NCBI RefSeq assembly: GCF_009914755.1
Contig: NC_060931.1
DNA: 64,000 bases
Reading direction: 5' to 3' (one strand)
Source: the human T2T-CHM13v2.0 reference genome, Homo sapiens
The notes below the pieces were generated by a model. That model made no database searches, was not told the origin of the DNA, and worked only from the letters and a program-made list of their open reading frames with translations. This document shows positions 13,759-55,914 of this stretch, in pieces. Both the position numbers and the translations under genes were made by a program. Position 1 is the stretch's first letter. Every line of letters starts with the position of its first letter.

Positions 13759-14048
13759 TTTTTTTGGAGACAGGGTCTTGCTCTGTTGCCCAGTCTGGAG
13801 TGCAGTGATGCAGTCTTGGCTCACAGCAACCTCTGCCTCCTGGGCTCAAGCGAGCCTCTCATCTCAGCCTCCCCAGTAGCTGAGACCACAAGGGTACATC
13901 ACCACGTCCAGCTAATATTTGTATTTTTTGTACAGACGAGGTTTTCCTATGTTGCCCAGGCTGGTCTCAAACTCCTGGGCCCAAGCAATCCACCTTCCTT
14001 GACCTCCCAAAATGTTGGGATTACATACATGAACCATTGTGCCCGGCC
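13759..14048 (-). mobile_element. Alu (AluJ-like)
   Basis: TSD ttgaatttcattttc 13744-13758 / 14049-14063. Confidence 0.9.
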
Positions 14049-14609
14049 TTGAATTTCATTTTCAATTTGTGTGTAATTTTAAGTGATTCTCTTGACAATT
14101 TTCTCTCTTTTCTTTTTTTTTGAGACAGAGTCTCGCTCTGTTGCTCAGGCTGGAGTGCAGTGGCGTGATAACTTTATCTCATTTTAATTGTTCCTCTTGT
14201 TTTGATTTCATAGAATTGTCTACAACTTTCAGAAAATGTTAAATAAGATGATCGTAGTTCTCATTCATTCGACAAGAGTGACATGACTCATTTTGTTTCT
14301 GCTTTTGGTAGAAGCACCTCTCATGTATCACCTTTGGCTGGGCTGACTTTCCCCACTCCCTGGTGAAATTTCCAATTCTCTTTTATGGGGTCTAAATTCT
14401 GATATAAATATTACATTCATGCCAGGTGCCCAACAAAATTCTCTGTAAGAGTTATGACAGAATGACAAGGTAATATACAGAAGAACAAAAATGACCGTTT
14501 AAGGAAGAAATCTGAGAAGAAAAATGACTCCTGCTAGAGATGTACCTACTAAGGCATGGATTCCTTCCAGTCATTCATTAGAGTTCGTGCTTGACTCTAG
14601 CTGAGAATG

Positions 14610-14672
14610 AAAGTAATGTGGAACTATCACTTTTAATGGCAAAAACAGCAGTGACTTTTACACCAATCTAAT
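14610..14672. mobile_element. Partial MADE1 (Hsmar1-derived MITE)
   Basis: acttttaatggcaaaaacagcagtgacttttacaccaatctaa matches the MADE1 right half. Confidence 0.7.
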
Positions 14673-15153
14673 GGTTCCATCCCATCATTACCTTAGATTC
14701 TAAACTAATAGGAGGGAGGCTCCAAATGTCAATTGTTAATAAACTTGGAACCACACTGGCCACAGAAGTATCTTAATGTGCTTATTTCCTGAGAATAATG
14801 ATCTCAGTAGGCTCCCTAAAATAGGAGTGGGCTGCCCTGTATAGTGCCTGCTGTGCCCAGAAGCCAACTGAATTCTACAAAGGGCACCAATTATTCTGAA
14901 AATGACACTCACAATACCTTTCCATTTTAATAATATACGCTTTAATGTTTTTTAACCGTCCATTCATTTGCAGTTGTTGCCCAGATGAGGAGGGACGTGA
15001 TTTGATTGGTAATGTCACATTTCTTTGCAGGGCACCAAGCCTCATACATAATACAAATATCTGACTATCTGTGACTACATAAACTCGACAATTGAGGGCT
15101 GATTTGTCACCAAATATCATCTCTCTTTACTAATTCAGTGTGTCTCTAGAGAA

Positions 15154-16189
15154 CTTCTTTCTTTCTTACAAGCTCAGCACTTCCTCATGTTTAATAAAAG
15201 ATTAGGTTTCCCAAAAAATAGCTGAGCAGGTTAAAATGGAATCATGCTTACAAGGCCTGATGCAACAGTTCCCAGTTTCTCACTAAAATACTTGCGAAAG
15301 AACAAAAAACAATAAACACCGAAATTAGATGAGAATCTTATGGGAATTCACAATGAAAGGCCTGTGATGCTGGATTCACAGACAGGATAGGAGGGCCTTG
15401 TGTAGGTCCATCAAGCTTCCTGCTCTTGAGTATGAAAGGAAGGAGGACCAGGCTTTGAGAAACTCTCAGTGTGTGTCCATCTCACATAGGCCCTGAGAGC
15501 CTCAGACTGAACCAACAGCAAAGCTGGGCACACGTCTTTGTTCTGAGGCAGCCAGAGAGCTCTTAGCTCCTCTCCACCTCCACTCTCATTTTAACTTCCT
15601 TCTCTGTCCATACAGAGCTGCAGTTCCCTGATAGCATTCTGCTCCCAAACAGAGGAGAATGGCGAGATTCCTGGGAGGAGGGTTCTCTTCTGCAGAGCAT
15701 TGCATGTTTGCCAAGGAGGAAAAAGAAACGCGCTGTGGCAGAGGTTTTCCCTATATTCTACATTTTTGTGTTTCAATGAGCCAGGAAATAAGGCTATGAG
15801 AAGACCCCCATCTCAGTCTAGCAGAAACTTATTGGAGGGTCATTTGCTAAAAACAAAGCAAAACAAAAATCCCTGGAAACTTGCAGGCAGCCCTGGAAAT
15901 GTGTTCATCCACCAACACAAGAGAAAGCTTTATGGACCTACAAAAGGCCTCCTGTAATATCTGTGAGTCCAGCATCACAGGCCTTTCGTTGTGAATTCCT
16001 GTAAGATTCGCATTTAATTTTGGTGTTTATTGTTTTTTGTTATTTCAGAAGTATTTTAGTGAGAATTTGGGAACTGTTGCACCGGGACTTGTAAGCATAA
16101 TTTCATTTTAACCTGCTCAGCTATTTCTTGGAAATGTAATCTTTTATTAAACATAATATTAAGTGCTGAGCTTGTAAGAGAGAAAGAAG
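15154..16189. repeat. Long inverted repeat: arms 15154-15428 and 15918-16189, ~490-bp spacer
   Basis: The reverse complement of the right arm aligns to the left arm over ~275 bp at about 87% identity (manual alignment). Confidence 0.95.
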
Positions 16190-16750
16190 GGGGATTCTAC
16201 AAAAGGGCCGGTTGGAAGAACCAAGCACTTGCTATTCTGTTGGTAAACACCAGCTCAGCACACATTTCTTCCTGTCCAAGGATAAAAGAACAGAAAACAA
16301 AAATTTCACCTTGAGCCTCTGGAAACACAAGGTAAAGGGAAGATAATTGTGACTGCTCAGATTAAATATGCCATCTTTGAAATTTATTTTCTAATGAAAA
16401 GGAAGGAAATTGAGCATTTCCTTCTTCTTCTTAACAGGATGCAGAAAGATCCTGCAATGGGAAATGAGGAGAGGGGCTGGGGGGAAGATAATATCAACCC
16501 AGGCCTCAAAATATTTCTGTTAGTGTTCAAATCTAGTATCCCACAAATAATAAAAAATAGTGTGGCCTATGAAGAGACAACACATTATGAACCCAAACCA
16601 GCAAAAACAGCAGAGAACAGAAACAGACTTGGAGGGAATTCCAATATTGAGGCTATCAGACACAGACTGTAAAGCAATGTGGTTTACAATGTTCATGGAA
16701 GAAAAAACCAAGCTTGAGAATGTTGTCAATCTAGCCAAGGAGTAGTGTTG

Positions 16751-16765
16751 GAAAAAAACAAAAAA

Positions 16766-16796
<31 letters not shown>

Positions 16797-16833
16797 GGGA
16801 GGGAGGGGGGGGGAGAGAGAGAGAGAGAGAGAG
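16751..16833. repeat. Poly-A plus (GA)n/G-rich simple repeat
   Basis: Directly visible. Confidence 0.9.
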
Positions 16834-16898
16834 AATGTTGGCAATCAATTGGAAACTATCAGAAAGAACACAGACATTGCAAATAAAGAAAAATAGTT

Positions 16899-17158
<260 letters not shown>

Positions 17159-17855
17159 TTAAAACTCAATAGTTGGGTGTAACAGCAGATTGGACATGGC
17201 TGATAAAAGGATTTAGGAACTGAAATGTAGGTCAAAATGAATACTCCTGAATGATACCGGTAGAGGACAGAGAATACAAGAGACATAAAGCATACTGTGA
17301 GAAGATCTGACATAAGGTTTATTCCAGAGTTTCACAAGGAGAGGAGATAGAGAATGAGGCAGAAGCAATATGTGGGGGCTTAAAGGCTAAAATATACAAG
17401 CCATGGTTTGAAGAAGCCCAACAAAGCCCAAGGAAGACACATAAAATGAAATCCACAACTGGACACGTCATAGTAAAACTTGAAAAATGCAAAGACATAG
17501 CAAAAACCTCCAAAGAGGCCACAGAAAAAATAAGAAGTTACTCTTAAAGAAGCAATAGAGAGACTGATGGCTGACAGATTGCCCTCAAGAAATAGCATCC
17601 AGATAGAGAAGACTCATCTCAACAACAATGGATACAAGAAGACACTGGAATAATATAATCTCATTTGAATGAGAAAGTGACTGCTTGCTTAGAAATTTAT
17701 TCCAGAAATAAGGGGCATAACTTAGAAATTAGAAGACAAAATTACAGTTATTGAACTGTATAGAATCATATATCCATAGAAGCTAAGAGACTAAGGTTCA
17801 ATAGGGTGAATAAAATTCAGCAAAACCCAATGACTTCTGTAAGCCAAAATACTAA

Positions 17856-28980: not shown

Positions 28981-31900
28981 CCCAGGAAGACAGAGATTCT
29001 ATCATCTTATGATGCTGCCATATCAACGCCAGACCTGAGAGTTTGCCATGGTGGGGAAAGATATGGAGAACCACACAGCAGCTCTTAAAGGCTTCCATCC
29101 CCAAACCAACCCACATCACTTCTGCCCAAGTTTCATTAGCCAAATCAAGCCATACATCCACATCTAACTTCCAAGGGTTGGGGAGGACATTCCTCTTACG
29201 TGCCAGAAGGCGAGGAGATCAGGAAATATTGGTGAACACCAGTAATGTCCGTGCACCAAACGTTTGTTTGTTCTGGCTGTCCTGCATCCACACCTAACAG
29301 ACAGATGAACCAAGTTGGGCCAACTGCACCCTCTCTCCAGGGTATCAAATCCACTGAAGCCATGTTCATTTACCTGCAATACCAAGAAACTCACTGAGTC
29401 TAGAGATGAAAGTCTCTCTAGAGACTTTTGTTCTTGAGTAGAGTTATGTAAGAACAGAGAAAAAAAGGGCTTACTCATTCTAGCAGATTCTAGCAGCCTC
29501 ATCTTGCTAATCCTGTCAGTTAATTTCCTCTTGTCCAGTCCCCCTGAAGCTACCCTTGTTTCCTGCACCGTTTTTTTCTCAGCTTGTTTCTCGAACTGTC
29601 CTATGAACCTGGGCACTACCAATACCCTCCCAATGTATTGCTTTTGTGCTTAGTATTAAGACTCAGTTTCTGTTATTTGTGCCAAACAGTTTCCCAAACA
29701 GAAAGCAAAAGCCAAAAAGAAAATAAACGCCCAACAGAAGCAATTTGCTAGGTGCTCTGAGATATACACACAGGTATGAACTTGTAGGGGGAGGTAGGAA
29801 AATTGGGTTCCTGTCTCAGGTCTGTCACCTGTCTTGCTGTGTGAACTTCAACAAACCCCCAAATTCATCAGTAAAATCAAAGTCTGGGACTAGTTAATCT
29901 TCAAAGTCCTTACTGGCGCCAGCAGACAATGACTGTGCCATTTTGGGATTGCTGAAACAAGCACAAACCCTGTATTTTGGTAGCTGATTGAAACCCAAAC
30001 CAGGCCCCACACTTTGACAAATAACCTGCCAAGTCTCCACATTTGCTGAGAATCACATTAGCCTAGGAAATCACGGATTGCTTATATTTTACATTTCAAA
30101 TGTGTAGAGATCTTGGCATTGATCTGAGGGTATGCCATCACCCTGGGGATTCGTCTCAGCAGCAGGGCTGGTATTCACTGCAAGGAACCACGCTCGGTAC
30201 TCATTGGATGCCTATATACTGTGTAGTATGTCCTTTAGTTTGTTTGAGACCAGTTGGGGTCCTTTATTTGCCCGTCAGCTTAGTACTCGAGAGGCAGAAG
30301 GACCTGACATTTCTAGAACATTGTGATGTACTAATATCAATAAAAGTAAATTATTATTATAAAACCTCAGCTCTCCATCTCTGATTAGAACTTCAGGAGC
30401 TGGGCAGAGAGAAAAATCCTAAGTATGTCTGTGCAGGTGGGTGTACAGATGAAAAATGAGATGACTTTCCCTGTGAATAAGTTTCACCTCTGATTAAAAT
30501 TCTGCCTAGAATGAAAGGGCGATGTGCTAAGATATGAATGACTCACTAAATCAGAAGGGCCTCTCTGTACACATTATTCTTCCTGCCTTTGGCTGCAATA
30601 AACTCTCTCTCATTCTTACATTGATAAAAATGGAGGTTTTCAGGATATCCTGCCCCGATAAAGTAACGACGAAGATGAGTTTCCATCAGGAGCATGGGTG
30701 ATCCTTGTCTTTCATACACATGAAGGGGCTTCACCAAATCCCAGAACACCACGGTGAGAGGAATTTCAGGGGTCACTGATTCCATAGGCTATGGTCAGGG
30801 GGCAGTCTCTGCTTGTGGATAATTTTTTCCTCTCTGCAAAGCTAACTGGGTGAAACGGGCTCAATCCTAAGATCTGGACCTCTTCAATCCAGGACTAACT
30901 AAGTAGGACTTGCACTTTAAAGCGGACCTCAGTGAACGTTAGTCTTCTGTGTGGGATGAGAAGAGAAAGGCTTAAGTGGCCGGCCAAACAGAACGGAGGT
31001 CCAGCTGCCTAGTGATTTCAGAAGATCCTGACAAGCTATGTCTTATGGAACCTGAGACTTTCTGCTGTGCCAGAGCCCTTGTTCAGTTCCTCAGCAAATT
31101 CTCAGTGGTCCCAGTTGATGATAACAGACAGTGCCCTGCCAAACCAAAGTTCCTGGCAACTGGAAGGTGTAGTTGCTCTAGGATGGATCTCAAGTGTTTC
31201 CAATGCAGTTTTCCTGTTGAACACAGTTACAAATGTGATACCTTGCAGCAACTTAAAAACACAGAAACCGGCCACACACACAATTCGTGCATGTTTGTGT
31301 TTAGTACCAGAAATGTGGCTTGTAACTTTTCTGTCTTTAATACAAGGTAGGGAATTTTTAAAACAATCCACTGCTTCCAGCTTTGGCTCTTTCTCAGGTA
31401 GGACTCACCCAGTAGATATAACTGAGTTCCCGCTGAACTTGGCAGTAGAGAGCGAACCCAGGAATTTGGCAGGAAGTAAGTTATGACTGCACAACCTGAG
31501 AAGCTACACGTCTGACTCAGGATGCCATGGGTTTGGGGGTTGGGATTATTCTCCAGATCCCAAGAATCCATGTCCAATGATTCCCTTATGGCCTAAACTA
31601 TTGATCTGGCAGTACTGAGTTTGGTTTTCAGTATTCAGTTCCAGGGCATCCACTTGTAAAAACAATCCATAAATGAGATTCTCAGACTCAGCAGTTTCTG
31701 CCACTACCGACTTGACGGACTAAGCCAGGGCTGTGATTGAGCCAGAATTCCTTGGAGGAGAAGCCTGGGGTGCTAAGCTGATTGTGAAGCAGCACCCATC
31801 AAGTGGAGGCTGAGGAGAGCATCCAGGATAAGCACTTGCAGGTGATGAGCTGCGAGTGTTTATCTACTTCGTCAACTTTAATAGGAAAAGAACAAGACCA

Positions 31901-32844: not shown

Positions 32845-33752
32845 GTTTTGTTTTTTAACTTTTAAATTCCGGGGTAAAAGTGCAGGTTTGTTACATAGGT
32901 AAGCTTGTGTCATGGGGGTCTGTTGTACAGATTATTTCATCACCTAGATATTAAGCCTAGTATACATTAATTATTTTTCCTGATCCTCTCCCTCCTCTTA
33001 ACCTCCACCCTCCAAAAGGCCCCAGTGTGTATTGTTCTCCACTGTGTGTCCACGTGTTCTCATCATTTACCTCCCACTTATAAGTAAGAACATGCAGTAT
33101 TTGGTTTTCTGTTCCTGCGTTAGTTTGCTAAGGATAATGACCTCCAGCTCCATCCTTGTCCTTGCGAAGGACATGATCTCATCCTTTTCATGGCTGCATA
33201 GTATTCCATGGTGTAGATGTACCACATTTTCTTTATCCAGTCACTGATGAACATTTAGATTGAGTCTGTGTCTTGGCTATTGTGAATAGTGCTGCAGTGA
33301 ACATATTCGTGCATGTGTCTTTATAACAGAATGATTTATATTCCTTTGGTATATACCCAGTAATGGGATTGCTGGGTCAAATGATATTTCTGTCTTTAGG
33401 TCTTTGAGGAATCACCACACTGTCTCCCACAATGATTGAACTAATTTATACTCCCACCAAGAGTATAAGTATCCCTTTTACTACACAAACTTGCCAGCAT
33501 CTGTTATCTTCTGACTTTTTAGTAATAGCCATTCTGACTGGTGTGAGATGGTGTCTCATTGTAGTTTTGATCTGCATTTCTCTAATGATCAGTGATGTTG
33601 AGCTTCTTTTTCCTATGATTGTTGGCCGCATGTATGCCTTCTCTTGAAAAGTGTCTGTTCATGTCGTTTGCCCACTTTTTTATTATGCATCCAACAAAAG
33701 TCTAATATCCAGTATATATAAGGAACTTAAACAAGTTTACAAGAAAAAAAAT
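32845..33752 (-). mobile_element. L1PA/PB 3' end with inverted 5' segment (~33684-33752)
   Basis: Antisense L1 to ~33680, then the adjacent upstream L1 segment in the opposite orientation. Confidence 0.85.
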
Positions 33753-34601: not shown

Positions 34602-35235
34602 CTACCTTTAGTGGACCCAGTTTACAATTTCTTGAGAAAGAAAACCCATCCCTCCAACCCATCCTCCCAACTCCCAGGATTAGAGGCACCACTGTCGCTG
34701 CAAATCTGCAGCAACATGTGTCTAGCAGCTAAAATGTCACAACCCAAGCCCCACCGTTTCTGGAAATGACTTAGAGCAACAGGGCAATAAGACAATAGCA
34801 TTCTTCCTCCCTGTCCTGTCCCTCCACTTCCACCTCCAATCCAGCAAATCTTAAAATAGTGAATTTCCCTAGACATCAATGGTAAGGATTATTTGTTTTT
34901 AATGTGGGATGTGACACTTGAGCGAAGATTGGAGGTGGGTTCTAGAAACACAAAGGGATGTTCCCATCAAGGTTGCCTAGGATAGTAGTATAAGAAAGAG
35001 GATCTGAGTATATACTAGCGATATAAACATATCTGTTAGTCAATCAAACATTCTTAGTCCAGGAAGAGAGAGAAGACTTGGGAGGTAAAATGTAGACTCC
35101 TTCCTCAGAGAAGATGGTGAATCAATCGCCTGAAACCAAGCAGAGGACAGGTTTGATACAAATGTGATTTTTTTTAATCAAGAGAAGAGTCAGGCAAAGA
35201 GTGGGCAGAGGAGAAGAAAGGCATCAATGATTTTC

Positions 35236-35623
35236 TGGATAAAGAAAATGTGGTACACATACACCATAGAATACTATGCAACCATAAAAAGGAATGAGAT
35301 CATGTCCTTGCCAGGAACATGGATGGAGCTGGAGGCCATTATCCTCAGCAAACTAATGCAGGAACAGAAAACCAAATACCACATGTTCCCACTTATAAGT
35401 GGGAGCTGAATAATAAGAACACTTGGACACAGGGAGGGGAACAACACACACTGGGCACCTGTGCTGGGGGAGGAGGAAAAACATCAGGAAGAATAGCTAA
35501 TGGATGCTGGGATGATCTGTGCAGCAAACCACCATGGCAGATGTTTACCTGTGTAACAAACTGCACATCCTGCACATGTACCCTGGAACTTAAAATAAAA
35601 GTTGAAGAAGCAAGAAAAAAAAA
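35236..35623 (+). mobile_element. L1PA/PB 3' end
   Basis: Peptide WIKKMWYTYTIEYY...WMELEAIILS followed by 3'UTR and A tail. Confidence 0.9.
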
Positions 35624-44110: not shown

Positions 44111-44569
44111 AGATTGATTTATATTGATTTGCCTTTCAACTATTCCTAGAAATTCTTATTCTTTATGAAGATGTTAAGTTTCTCCCATTATCATAATTGT
44201 TCTGCTTTAAGAATGTCCTTCACTATTTTTTATAGTAAAGGTCTGCTGCTAATGTGTTCTCAAAACCCCCCTCCTATTTTTTGGGTTTTTTTGGTTTTTT
44301 TTTTTGGTTGTTGTTTGGTCTGGAAAGTCATTATTTGTCTTTAGTTTTAAAAAATATTTTCCTTTAATTTTAAAAATAATTCATTTTTAAAATATTTTCC
44401 TTTAATTTTAAAAATATAGACTTCTGGGTTGACAGATTGGGTTTGCATCAGTTATCCATTTATTGCCTCTCAGCTCTGAATGCATCTTCCAATACAGGCA
44501 ATACAATAAAGTGTGAGAAGCAATGGAATCCCTTTGAGCATTTCTCCTTTAAAGTCAGCAGGATGTTGA

Positions 44570-45235
<666 letters not shown>

Positions 45236-47229: not shown

Positions 47230-47409
47230 TGCCATTACTTTTAATGGCAAAAAAAAAAAAAAAAGGTCTGTCCGTGTTTTGTACAGACACAATTTTACCC
47301 CGAATATTTTTGATCCACGGTTATTTGAATCCATGGATGCAGAACCCGTGGATACAGAATGCCATTACTTTTAATGTCAAAAAATGCAATTACTTTTGCA
47401 CCAATGTAA
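47230..47409. mobile_element. Composite: partial MADE1 / MER2 terminal fragment / partial MADE1
   Basis: tgccattacttttaatg at 47230-47246 and 47360-47376 brackets ~100 bp of MER2 end sequence. Confidence 0.8.
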
Positions 47410-47548
47410 TAGTTCACATACCATATCTTTCGCTTAAAGTATACAAGTCAATGGTTTTTTGTAGAGTCACAGAGTTATGCCATCATCACAACAACAGATT
47501 CTACAACTGATCTTAGAACACTTTTATCGCCGCAAAAAGAAATATTCT

Positions 47549-53140: not shown

Positions 53141-53923
53141 ATTATCTTAGTCTATTTTGCATTGTATAAGGAATACCTGAGGCTGGGTAATTTATAAAGA
53201 AAAGAGGTTTACTTGGCTCATGGTTCTGCAGGATGTACAAGCATGGTGCCTGTATCTACTTGGCTTCTGGTGAGACCTCAGGAAGCTTTTACTCATGGTA
53301 GAAGGCAAAGGGGGAACAGGTGTGCCACGTGACAAGAAAGGGAGCAAGAGAGATGCCAGGCTCTTTTTAAGCAACCAGCTCTTGAATGAACTAACAGAAC
53401 GAGAACTCACTCATTACCATGGGGAGGGCACCAAGCCATTCATGAGGGATCTGTCCCTATGACCCAAACACCTCCCACCAGGCCCCACCTCCAACACTGA
53501 GGGTTGTATTAGTCTGTTCTCATGTTGCTAATAAAGACATACCCAAGGCTGGGTAATTTATAAAGAAAAAGAGGTTTAATGGACTCCCAGTTCCACATGG
53601 CTGGGGAGACCTCGCAATCATGGTGGAAGGCAAGGAGGAGCAAGTCACATATTACATGGTGGCAGAGAAGAGAGAGAACTTGTGCAGGAGAACTCCTGTT
53701 TATAAAACCATCAGATCTTGTAGCACTTATTCACTAATACGAGAACAGCACAGTAAAGACCCACCCCCATGATTCAATTACCTCCCACCAGGTCCCTCCA
53801 ACAACACATGGAAATTATGGGAGCTATAATTCAAGATGAGATTTGGGTGGGCAAACAGCCAAACCATATCAGGGTCACCTTTCCATATGAGATTTGGAGG
53901 GGACACATATCCAAACTGTAGCA
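53141..53923 (-). mobile_element. MST-type LTR with a nested THE1 LTR (53505-53871)
   Basis: Two MaLR LTRs; the inner one is flanked by gggt and the outer resumes after it. Confidence 0.85.
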
Positions 53924-55523: not shown

Positions 55524-55877
55524 CATATGGTCTGGCTCTGTGTCCCCACCCAAATCTCATCTTGAATTGTAGCTCCCATAATTCCCATGTGTTATCGGAG
55601 AGCCTGGAGGGAGACAATTTGAACCATGGAGGCAGTTTCCCCCATACTGTTCTCGTGGTAGTGAGTAAGTCTCATGAGATCTGATGGTTTTATCAGGAGT
55701 TTCTGCTTTTGTATCTCCCTCATTTTCTCTTGCTGCCACCATATAAGAAGTGCCTTTCATCTCCAGCCATGATTCTGAGGCCTCCCCAGCCATGTGGAAC
55801 TGTAAGTCCAATTAAACCTCTTTTTCTTCCCAGTCTCAGGTATGTCTGTATCCACAGCATGAAAATGGACTAATACA
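55524..55877 (+). mobile_element. THE1 MaLR LTR
   Basis: catatggtctggctctgtgtcccc...ggactaataca. Confidence 0.9.
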
Positions 55878-55914
55878 ATTAGGCAGCTCTTTAAATATCT
55901 ATCTTTCTAATCTA

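What the first reader, a model, noticed from the sequence alone, without database searches (positions are those of the whole stretch)
15154..16189. ~275-bp inverted repeat in non-repeat sequence able to form a long dsRNA stem
Seen: the arms 15154-15428 and 15918-16189 are reverse complements, with about 28 substitutions plus a few small indels by manual count (~87%), around a ~490-bp unique spacer. I do not recognise the arms as Alu, L1, LTR or a MITE, and I see no TSD. Of about 18 transition mismatches, about 12 would be G-U pairs in a + strand RNA and about 6 in a - strand RNA, a weak skew that is not significant. Established: long intramolecular dsRNA is a substrate for ADAR and Dicer, can trigger MDA5/PKR, and flanking inverted repeats can promote exon skipping or back-splicing. 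Inference: this is a local inverted duplication, possibly kept as a hairpin-RNA locus or homogenised by arm-to-arm conversion.
Basis: partly seen in the sequence, partly recalled or inferred. Interest (0 to 1): 0.8.

Follow-up and report, generated by a model that had tools for sequence, protein, structure and literature searches.

The report
Old local inverted duplication in CALN1 intron
A real 278-base inverted repeat of otherwise single-copy DNA sits deep in a CALN1 intron; it looks like an old, passively decaying local inverted duplication and not a mobile element or a maintained hairpin-RNA gene.

Summary
Arm 15154-15431 and arm 15915-16189 are reverse complements: 242 of 280 aligned columns match, with 31 substitutions and 5 indel events, around a 483-bp spacer.

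In the whole T2T genome each arm matches only itself and its partner, and the spacer matches only itself. The full span 14700-16470 is also single-copy. The same search found 18 matches of a pseudogene family, down to 74% identity.

- There is no target-site duplication beyond chance.
- Rfam and Pfam give no match inside the repeat.
- Two independent repeat copies are excluded, and transposon terminal repeats are very unlikely.

The best reading is a local inverted duplication made by template switching or fold-back repair.

The divergence looks neutral. K2P is 0.124, with 19 transitions (4 at CpG) and 12 transversions. Differences are evenly spread, with no conversion tract. G:U-compatible mismatches do not favour the CALN1 sense strand, which forms the weaker stem. 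Per-arm divergence equals that of the youngest Alus nearby, suggesting a primate-lineage origin roughly 25-60 Myr ago.

It is 1 of 74 close inverted pairs in this window; 71 are Alu pairs. No orthologue, RNA or editing data could be examined. Interest is low.

The parts
15154..15431 (.). Left arm of the inverted repeat (278 bp, 39.6% GC, 2 CpG)
   Evidence: Searches give the alignment to the reverse complement of the right arm (242 of 280 columns identical). Searches show that the only genome matches are itself and the right arm.
15432..15914 (.). Unduplicated spacer (483 bp, 47.6% GC), not palindromic. It would be the loop of the hairpin.
   Evidence: In one search the only genome match is itself. 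In one search its self reverse-complement signal is E = 0.92, and there are only two marginal nhmmer matches elsewhere in the window (E 0.025 and 0.04). In one search, 0 Pfam families were found for 5 stop-to-stop frames.
15915..16189 (.). Right arm of the inverted repeat (275 bp, 34.9% GC, 3 CpG)
   Evidence: Supported. In one search it is found as the single non-self match of the left arm (87%, E = 4e-85).

Best explanation
This is a relic of one local inverted duplication. About 278 bp of single-copy intronic DNA was copied in reverse-complement orientation about 480 bp from its source. The likely cause is a template switch during replication or a fold-back of a resected broken end; this mechanism is inferred, not shown.

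The event is dated by divergence to the primate lineage, roughly 25-60 Myr ago. Since then the two copies have drifted apart neutrally to 86-87% identity.

CALN1 is transcribed from the - strand, so the two arms lie in one intron. In the pre-mRNA they can pair into an imperfect duplex of about 250 bp with a 483-nt loop. The expected consequence, inferred from established ADAR biology, is ordinary nuclear A-to-I editing of an intronic duplex that is degraded with the intron. No dedicated function is expected.
For: 1. The repeat is real and far beyond chance.

2. It is made of unique DNA. In the whole genome the arm query gave 2 of 2 candidates, itself and its partner. The spacer gave 1 of 1, itself. 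The 1771-bp span 14700-16470 gave 1 candidate locus. The partner arm at 87% is an internal positive control, and the RPS28P6 control returned 18 matches down to 74% identity. A 23-mer shared by both arms, allowing up to 2 mismatches, hit only one further place, on contig 4. That match reaches at most 30 bases (83% identity) and does not extend along the arm. nhmmer and blastn found no further copy of the arms in the window.

3. There are no transposon hallmarks. The best TSD candidate is 7 of 9 bases, null P = 0.2. Pfam gave 0 families for 5 frames. Rfam gave 0 of 5 hits inside the repeat.

4. The structure is source - unduplicated spacer - inverted copy. This is the layout described for fold-back and template-switch inverted duplications (passages read in PMC3907307, and PMC5453318).

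5. The decay looks neutral. There are 19 transitions (4 at CpG) and 12 transversions, with 5 indel events. Identity is 0.82-0.90 in every 40-column block. The longest perfect run is 23, against a mean of 27.9 under random placement.

6. Per-arm non-CpG divergence is 0.053. That equals the youngest Alus in this window: 2 of 27 are at or below 0.053, and about 7 of 351 Alu pairs (fraction 0.0199) are at or below the arm-arm value of 0.107.
Against: - No orthologous sequence from any other species could be examined. The duplication event, its polarity (which arm is the copy) and its date are therefore inferred, not observed.
- No Dfam or RepeatMasker library was available. An origin from a very old or very low-copy element is excluded only down to about 74% identity.
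- The junctions show no clear inverted microhomology, although after about 12% divergence this test has little power.
- The + strand stem is somewhat more stable than the - strand stem (-383 vs -365 kcal/mol). There are 12 vs 7 G:U-compatible mismatches, which is not significant. If real, this would hint at a + strand RNA that is not annotated.
- Arm1 keeps G/C where arm2 has A/T at 18 sites against 9 the other way. This is my count from the list, two-sided binomial about 0.12, and it is unexplained.
Confidence: 0.72

Rival explanations
1. It is a single insertion of a non-autonomous DNA transposon with about 278-bp terminal inverted repeats (a Mutator-like or Tc2-like layout). The spacer would be its internal region.
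For: The layout is a long terminal inverted repeat around a short unique core, total 1036 bp. There is a 7-of-9 direct repeat, TCTAGAGAA / TCTACAAAA, at the left edge and 6 bp beyond the right edge.
Against: The genome holds no other copy of the arms or the core, although the search sees 74-87% relatives. Copies from the same burst should be about as similar to an arm as the arms are to each other. The TSD candidate is within chance (P = 0.2) and is offset by 6 bp. No transposase remnant was found, which is weak evidence for a non-autonomous element. From my recall of Repbase families, the ends (CTTCTTTC...) do not look like hAT, Tc1/mariner, piggyBac or MuDR termini; this was not tested against a library.
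Confidence: 0.1
2. It is a maintained hairpin-RNA locus: an hpRNA/endo-siRNA source, an ADAR-substrate regulatory structure, or an element shaping CALN1 splicing. Pairing would be preserved by selection or by arm-to-arm gene conversion.
For: Either strand can form a duplex of about 250 bp. It is the most identical of the 74 close inverted pairs in the window and the only one made of unique DNA. Long hairpins are processed to siRNAs in other organisms (LIRBase introduction, passages read).
Against: The arms differ at 38 of 280 columns, including 12 transversions and 5 indel events that break pairing on both strands. The differences are evenly spread and there is no conversion tract. There is no significant G:U preference (12 vs 7, p = 0.36), and the CALN1 sense strand has the weaker stem and a longest helix of only 31 bp. 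Rfam gives no family match. The RefSeq table supplied with the finding lists no exon of the one transcript shown, no RNA gene and no functional element at this place. The intron already carries 71 Alu-type inverted pairs in this window. Two literature searches on CALN1 returned nothing relevant.
Confidence: 0.08
3. It is two independent insertions of the same interspersed repeat family in opposite orientation, like the Alu pairs around it.
For: This is the origin of nearly all other inverted pairs here. In 71 of 74 pairs the arms have 17-37 further copies in the window.
Against: The arms have no further copy in the window or in the genome. Independent copies as alike as 87% would imply many equally similar relatives.
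Confidence: 0.02

Closest known systems
Template-switch inverted repeats (four-point model; Loytynoja & Goldman 2017, PMC5453318; Walker et al. 2021, PMC7954356; Monttinen et al. 2023, listing abstract only)
   Same: One event copies a nearby fragment in reverse complement and creates a new inverted repeat able to fold as an RNA hairpin (passages read). The repeat is made of local unique sequence and has no TSD.
   Different: The catalogued short-range events lie within about +/-100 nt of the mutation cluster. Here the copy is about 278 bp and lies about 480 bp away, so it is larger than that class. The event itself is inferred, because no ancestral state was seen.
Fold-back inverted duplications with an unduplicated spacer (Hermetz et al. 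2014, PMC3907307)
   Same: The architecture is duplicated segment - single-copy spacer - inverted copy. Reported spacers are 766-70,466 bp, so 483 bp is just below that range.
   Different: Those duplications span megabases (about 4.6-41.7 Mb in the table rows read) and come with terminal deletions or translocations and 2-8 bp of inverted microhomology at the junction. This one is 278 bp and interstitial, and no microhomology is recognisable.
Inverted Alu pairs (IRAlus) in introns, the main ADAR substrates
   Same: They share similar arm length (about 280-300 bp), spacing and imperfect pairing, and an intronic position. There are 71 such pairs within 5 kb of each other in this same window. The expected fate is the same: nuclear editing and decay with the intron (recalled knowledge, and Barak et al. 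discussion).
   Different: The arms are not Alu and not any multi-copy repeat. The pair arose by one duplication and not by two insertions, and it is more identical (87%) than any of the Alu pairs here.
Long, nearly perfect endogenous dsRNAs under purifying selection / MDA5-relevant class (Barak et al. 2020, PMC7006430)
   Same: It is an inverted duplicated sequence within one pre-mRNA.
   Different: That class is defined as longer than 300 bp and above 96% identity. This stem is 278 bp at 86-87% and intronic, so it falls outside the class on both counts.
LIRBase long inverted repeats / hpRNA loci (PMC8728187)
   Same: It is an inverted repeat able to give a long hairpin RNA.
   Different: LIRBase keeps only arms longer than 400 nt, so this locus would not be listed. 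No small-RNA evidence is available here.

Membership tests
DNA transposon / MITE with terminal inverted repeats | Several related copies elsewhere in the genome | tested here: not met
   The arm gave itself plus its partner only. The core gave itself only. The 14700-16470 span gave 1 candidate locus. The 23-mer with up to 2 mismatches gave 1 extra hit that does not extend. The control family was found down to 74% identity.
DNA transposon / MITE with terminal inverted repeats | Target-site duplication directly flanking the inverted termini | tested here: not met
   The best candidate is 7 of 9 bases with a 6-bp offset, reached by 20% of 500 random-flank controls.
DNA transposon / MITE with terminal inverted repeats | Terminal inverted repeats | tested here: met
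   The arms are 278 and 275 bp and 86-87% complementary.
DNA transposon / MITE with terminal inverted repeats | Match to a curated repeat consensus (Dfam/Repbase) | not testable with these tools
Inverted Alu pair | Each arm is an Alu element (7SL-derived, many copies) | tested here: not met
   The Rfam SRP and Alu-derived miRNA matches lie at 14010-14052 and 16896-17125, and none lies in the arms. The arms have 1 other copy in the window, against 17-37 for Alu arms.
Template-switch / fold-back local inverted duplication | Reverse-complement copy of nearby, otherwise unique sequence with an unduplicated spacer | tested here: met
Template-switch / fold-back local inverted duplication | Microhomology at the switch or fold-back junctions | tested here: inconclusive
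   By eye on the sequence, no inverted microhomology sits exactly at the spacer ends. The arm ends are blurred by divergence: identity is 0.82 in the last 40 columns.
Template-switch / fold-back local inverted duplication | An ancestral state lacking one arm in outgroup species | not testable with these tools
   No other mammalian genome is held. The genome tool states that this assembly has no relatives here.
hpRNA / endo-siRNA locus | Long hairpin-forming inverted repeat | tested here: met
   Cofolding gives 250 (+ strand) and 247 (- strand) inter-arm base pairs.
hpRNA / endo-siRNA locus | Transcription and Dicer-sized small RNAs from the arms | not testable with these tools
   No expression or small-RNA data are available.
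hpRNA / endo-siRNA locus | Pairing preserved beyond neutral expectation (strand-specific G:U tolerance, few pair-breaking changes) | tested here: not met
   G:U-compatible mismatches are 12 versus 7, p = 0.36. There are 12 transversions and 5 indel events. This is a weak test without orthologues.
Immunogenic long near-perfect dsRNA (Barak et al. class) | Stem longer than 300 bp and above 96% identity | tested here: not met
   The stem is 278 bp at 86.4-87.0% identity. The thresholds come from passages read in PMC7006430.

The most novel reading that the evidence does not exclude
It is a primate-specific hairpin RNA born in one step from unique intronic DNA. It would be transcribed in neurons with CALN1, or from an unannotated + strand unit for which the stem is slightly more stable. 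It would act as a dedicated ADAR/Dicer substrate, or loop out the 483-nt spacer to control a cryptic exon. This would be an example of de novo structured-RNA origin by a template switch much larger than those catalogued so far.
Probability: 0.05. Interest if true: 0.55.

Novelty: new member of a known kind. Interest (0 to 1): 0.18.

Why it matters
The locus matters mainly as a clean example of its kind. It is an inverted repeat of intermediate size (about 280-bp arms, about 480-bp spacer) made from unique DNA. That places it between the tens-of-bp template-switch events catalogued in great apes and the megabase-scale fold-back duplications seen in patients. Primate orthologues could show the ancestral state and the breakpoints. 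It would then be a dated natural case of how a long RNA hairpin can arise in a single mutation.

For CALN1 biology it probably adds little. The same intron already holds dozens of Alu-based duplexes of similar size. The stem is also below the length and identity thresholds linked to innate-immune sensing.

Tried and rejected
- Rfam scan of 14000-17500 at E <= 1 gave 5 matches, all Alu-derived and all outside the repeat.
- Pfam scan of 5 stop-to-stop frames of the spacer gave 0 families. The ORF listing showed nothing gene-like.
- Tandem repeats: only short A-rich runs lie inside the arms.
- I built a sequence-only model of the two arms for a more sensitive genome search. The genome tool does not accept models for this assembly, so sensitivity below about 74% identity remains untested.
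- The contig 4 match to a shared 23-mer was fetched and compared. Similarity reaches at most 30 bases, so I rejected it as chance.
- nhmmer of arms, spacer, flanks and an arm profile against the window gave no arm relatives. There were two marginal spacer matches, at 44467-44591 (E 0.025) and 31041-31168 (E 0.04), possibly an ancient repeat fragment. I did not pursue them.
- The spacer is not a hidden continuation of the palindrome. Its self reverse-complement signal has E = 0.92 and a different centre.
- The gene-conversion tract test was negative.
- The TSD scan was negative.
- Assembly artefact is rejected, because artefactual fold-backs would be near-identical and these arms differ by 13%.
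- Literature: 'CALN1' + 'inverted repeat' gave 3 papers, and 'CALN1' + 'RNA editing' + 'dsRNA' gave 1 paper. Judged from the listing alone, none concerns this locus.
- Warburton et al. 2004 is not held.
- window.fa carries no soft-masking, so NCBI's masking status of the arms is unknown. The hub lists only the 20 longest masked stretches.

Full report
**Observation**

The repeat finder reports a 192-nt core (15208-15399 / 15943-16134, 87% complementary) with three collinear flanking pieces. A gapped local alignment joins them into arm1 15154-15431 and arm2 15915-16189. It has 280 columns, 242 identical (86.4%), 31 substitutions and 7 gap columns in 5 events. The spacer is 483 bp, at 15432-15914.

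Of the 31 substitutions, 19 are transitions and 12 are transversions. Twelve transitions would be G:U pairs in a + strand RNA and 7 in a - strand RNA (binomial p = 0.36).

The match cannot be chance:
- The partner arm scores E = 4e-85 against the whole 3.1-Gb genome.
- The arms cofold at -383 kcal/mol (+) and -365 kcal/mol (-), against -135.7 +/- 5.4 for 20 shuffles of one arm.
- The 1151-nt region folds with the arms as one long stem.

**What the arms are made of**

The window is chr7:73098001-73162000 of T2T-CHM13, inside CALN1 (- strand), according to the table supplied with the finding. That assembly could be searched.

- The left arm finds only itself and the right arm: 2 candidates, 2 scored, even at E <= 10.
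- The spacer finds only itself.
- The whole 1771-bp span 14700-16470 gives a single candidate locus.

The search is sensitive enough for this question. It recovers the partner arm at 87%, and as a control it recovers 18 matches of the RPS28 pseudogene family down to 74% identity.

A wider query, 14300-16740, picked up repeats only outside the element. One is a piece of about 50 bp at 14619-14680 with dozens of copies. The other is a 71% match for 16481-16729.

A 23-mer conserved in both arms, allowing up to 2 mismatches, hits one other place, on contig 4. The similarity there reaches at most 30 bases (83% identity) and does not extend along the arm.

Within the window, blastn with 7-base words and nhmmer with each arm and with an arm profile find no other copy. 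Rfam gives nothing inside the element; its 5 hits at E <= 1 are all Alu-derived and lie outside. Five stop-to-stop frames of the spacer give 0 Pfam families.

I could not run Dfam or RepeatMasker. A profile search of the genome was not accepted. Derivation from a very old repeat, below about 74% identity, therefore remains possible. That would not change how the inverted repeat itself arose.

**Transposon or duplication**

Two independent insertions of one repeat family are excluded. Copies 87% alike would have many equally similar relatives, and there are none.

A single insertion of a long-TIR element is very unlikely for the same reason. In addition, the best flanking direct repeat is 7 of 9 bases, displaced by 6 bp, and 20% of 500 random-flank controls do as well.

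What remains is a local inverted duplication: source, unduplicated spacer, inverted copy. This layout is described for fold-back inverted duplications, whose spacers are 766-70,466 bp with 2-8 bp of inverted microhomology (PMC3907307, passages). It is also described for template-switch mutations that create new inverted repeats in one event (PMC5453318, passages).

Catalogued short-range events lie within about +/-100 nt (PMC7954356, passages). This event is larger than those and far smaller than the patient rearrangements.

I see no microhomology exactly at the junctions (by eye). After 12% divergence, and with the inner arm ends at 82% identity, this test has little power.

**Age**

K2P distance between the arms is 0.124, or 0.107 without the 4 CpG-context transitions. 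Per arm that is 0.062 and 0.053.

As a local clock I aligned 27 Alu copies of at least 220 bp from this window. Their non-CpG divergence from the window's majority consensus ranges from 0.052 to 0.249, with a median of 0.109.
- Only 2 of 27 are at or below 0.053.
- Only about 7 of 351 Alu pairs (fraction 0.0199) are at or below the arm-arm distance.

The duplication is therefore about as old as the youngest Alus here. With recalled neutral rates of 1.0-2.2e-9 per site per year, this gives about 25-60 Myr, that is, a primate-lineage origin. The rates and the Alu ages are recalled and do not come from a call. The window consensus also overstates Alu divergence somewhat. Gene conversion early in its history would make the true age greater.

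**Is the pairing maintained?**

Nothing suggests that it is.
- Identity is 0.82-0.90 in each 40-column block.
- The longest perfect run is 23 columns, against a mean maximum of 27.9 under random placement (P = 0.77, 20000 permutations). There is no sign of a conversion tract.
- Twelve transversions and 5 indel events break pairing on either strand.
- The G:U skew is not significant and favours the + strand, while CALN1 is read from the - strand.
- The - strand stem is weaker (-365 vs -383 kcal/mol) and its longest uninterrupted helix is 31 bp, against 50 bp on the + strand.

Arm1 retains G/C where arm2 has A/T at 18 sites, against 9 the other way. This is my count from the list (p about 0.12). 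It may mean that arm2 changed faster, but it is not significant.

**Context**

The window holds 74 inverted pairs with arms of at least 100 bp and spacers of at most 5 kb.
- In 71 of them the left arm has 17-37 further copies in the window (Alu).
- In 2 of them the left arm has 3-4 further copies.
- This pair is the only one made of unique DNA, and it is the most identical of the 74.

The CALN1 pre-mRNA therefore already carries many duplexes of similar size.

The class of endogenous dsRNA under strong purifying selection and relevant to MDA5 is defined as longer than 300 bp and above 96% identity (PMC7006430, passages). This stem, at 278 bp and 86-87%, is outside it. LIRBase lists only arms longer than 400 nt (PMC8728187, passages), so the locus would not be listed there.

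Two literature searches on CALN1 returned nothing about this locus, judged from the listing only. The first combined CALN1 with 'inverted repeat'. The second combined it with 'RNA editing' and 'dsRNA'.

**How it most likely works**

Shown:
- The repeat is real.
- It is made of unique DNA.
- It can form a duplex of about 250 bp on either strand.

Inferred:
- It arose by one local inverted duplication in a primate ancestor.
- It decays neutrally.
- In neurons that express CALN1, the intronic stem is edited by ADAR like the neighbouring Alu pairs and is degraded with the intron.

Not examined, because the tools hold no such data: orthologues, transcription, editing, small RNAs, circRNAs and population variants. 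Any of these could raise the small probability, about 5-8%, that the hairpin has a role of its own.

**Verdict**

It is an ordinary member of a known kind and of low interest. Its main value is as a clean, datable example of an intermediate-sized inverted duplication.

Noticed in passing
window 14619-14680: A piece of about 50 bp recurs in dozens of places across the genome at 83-95% identity. It also matches window 47364-47443 at 76%. It is probably a fragment of an interspersed repeat that I could not name without a repeat library.
   Followed up: no
window 16481-16834: The stretch 16481-16729 has one 71% match on contig 1. It is followed by a 35-base A run (16752-16786) and an (AG)n run (16786-16834). 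It looks like an old retroposed element with its tail, just left of an Alu at 16890-17150.
   Followed up: no
window 32853-33240 / 35235-35600 and 53504-53869 / 55525-55878: These are two further inverted pairs whose arms are not Alu-like, with only 3-4 other copies in the window. They have arms of about 380 bp at about 75% identity and spacers of about 2.0 and 1.7 kb. They are probably pairs of a lower-copy repeat such as L1 or an LTR.
   Followed up: no
whole window: The window has a very high density of Alu inverted pairs. 71 of the 74 inverted pairs with arms of at least 100 bp and spacers of at most 5 kb are Alu-like. 27 Alu copies of at least 220 bp were aligned, with non-CpG divergence of 0.05-0.25 from their consensus.
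   Followed up: partly
window 15596-15615 (+ strand): A pyrimidine-rich run ends in CAG (ttccttctctgtccatacag) in the spacer, and GTAAGA/GTAAGC motifs lie in the right arm. On the + strand these resemble splice signals. No + strand gene is annotated here and the resemblance was judged by eye only.
   Followed up: no
window 15576-15687 and 15771-15888 (spacer): There are marginal nhmmer similarities to window 44467-44591 (E 0.025) and 31041-31168 (E 0.04). They may be traces of an ancient repeat inside the spacer.
   Followed up: no
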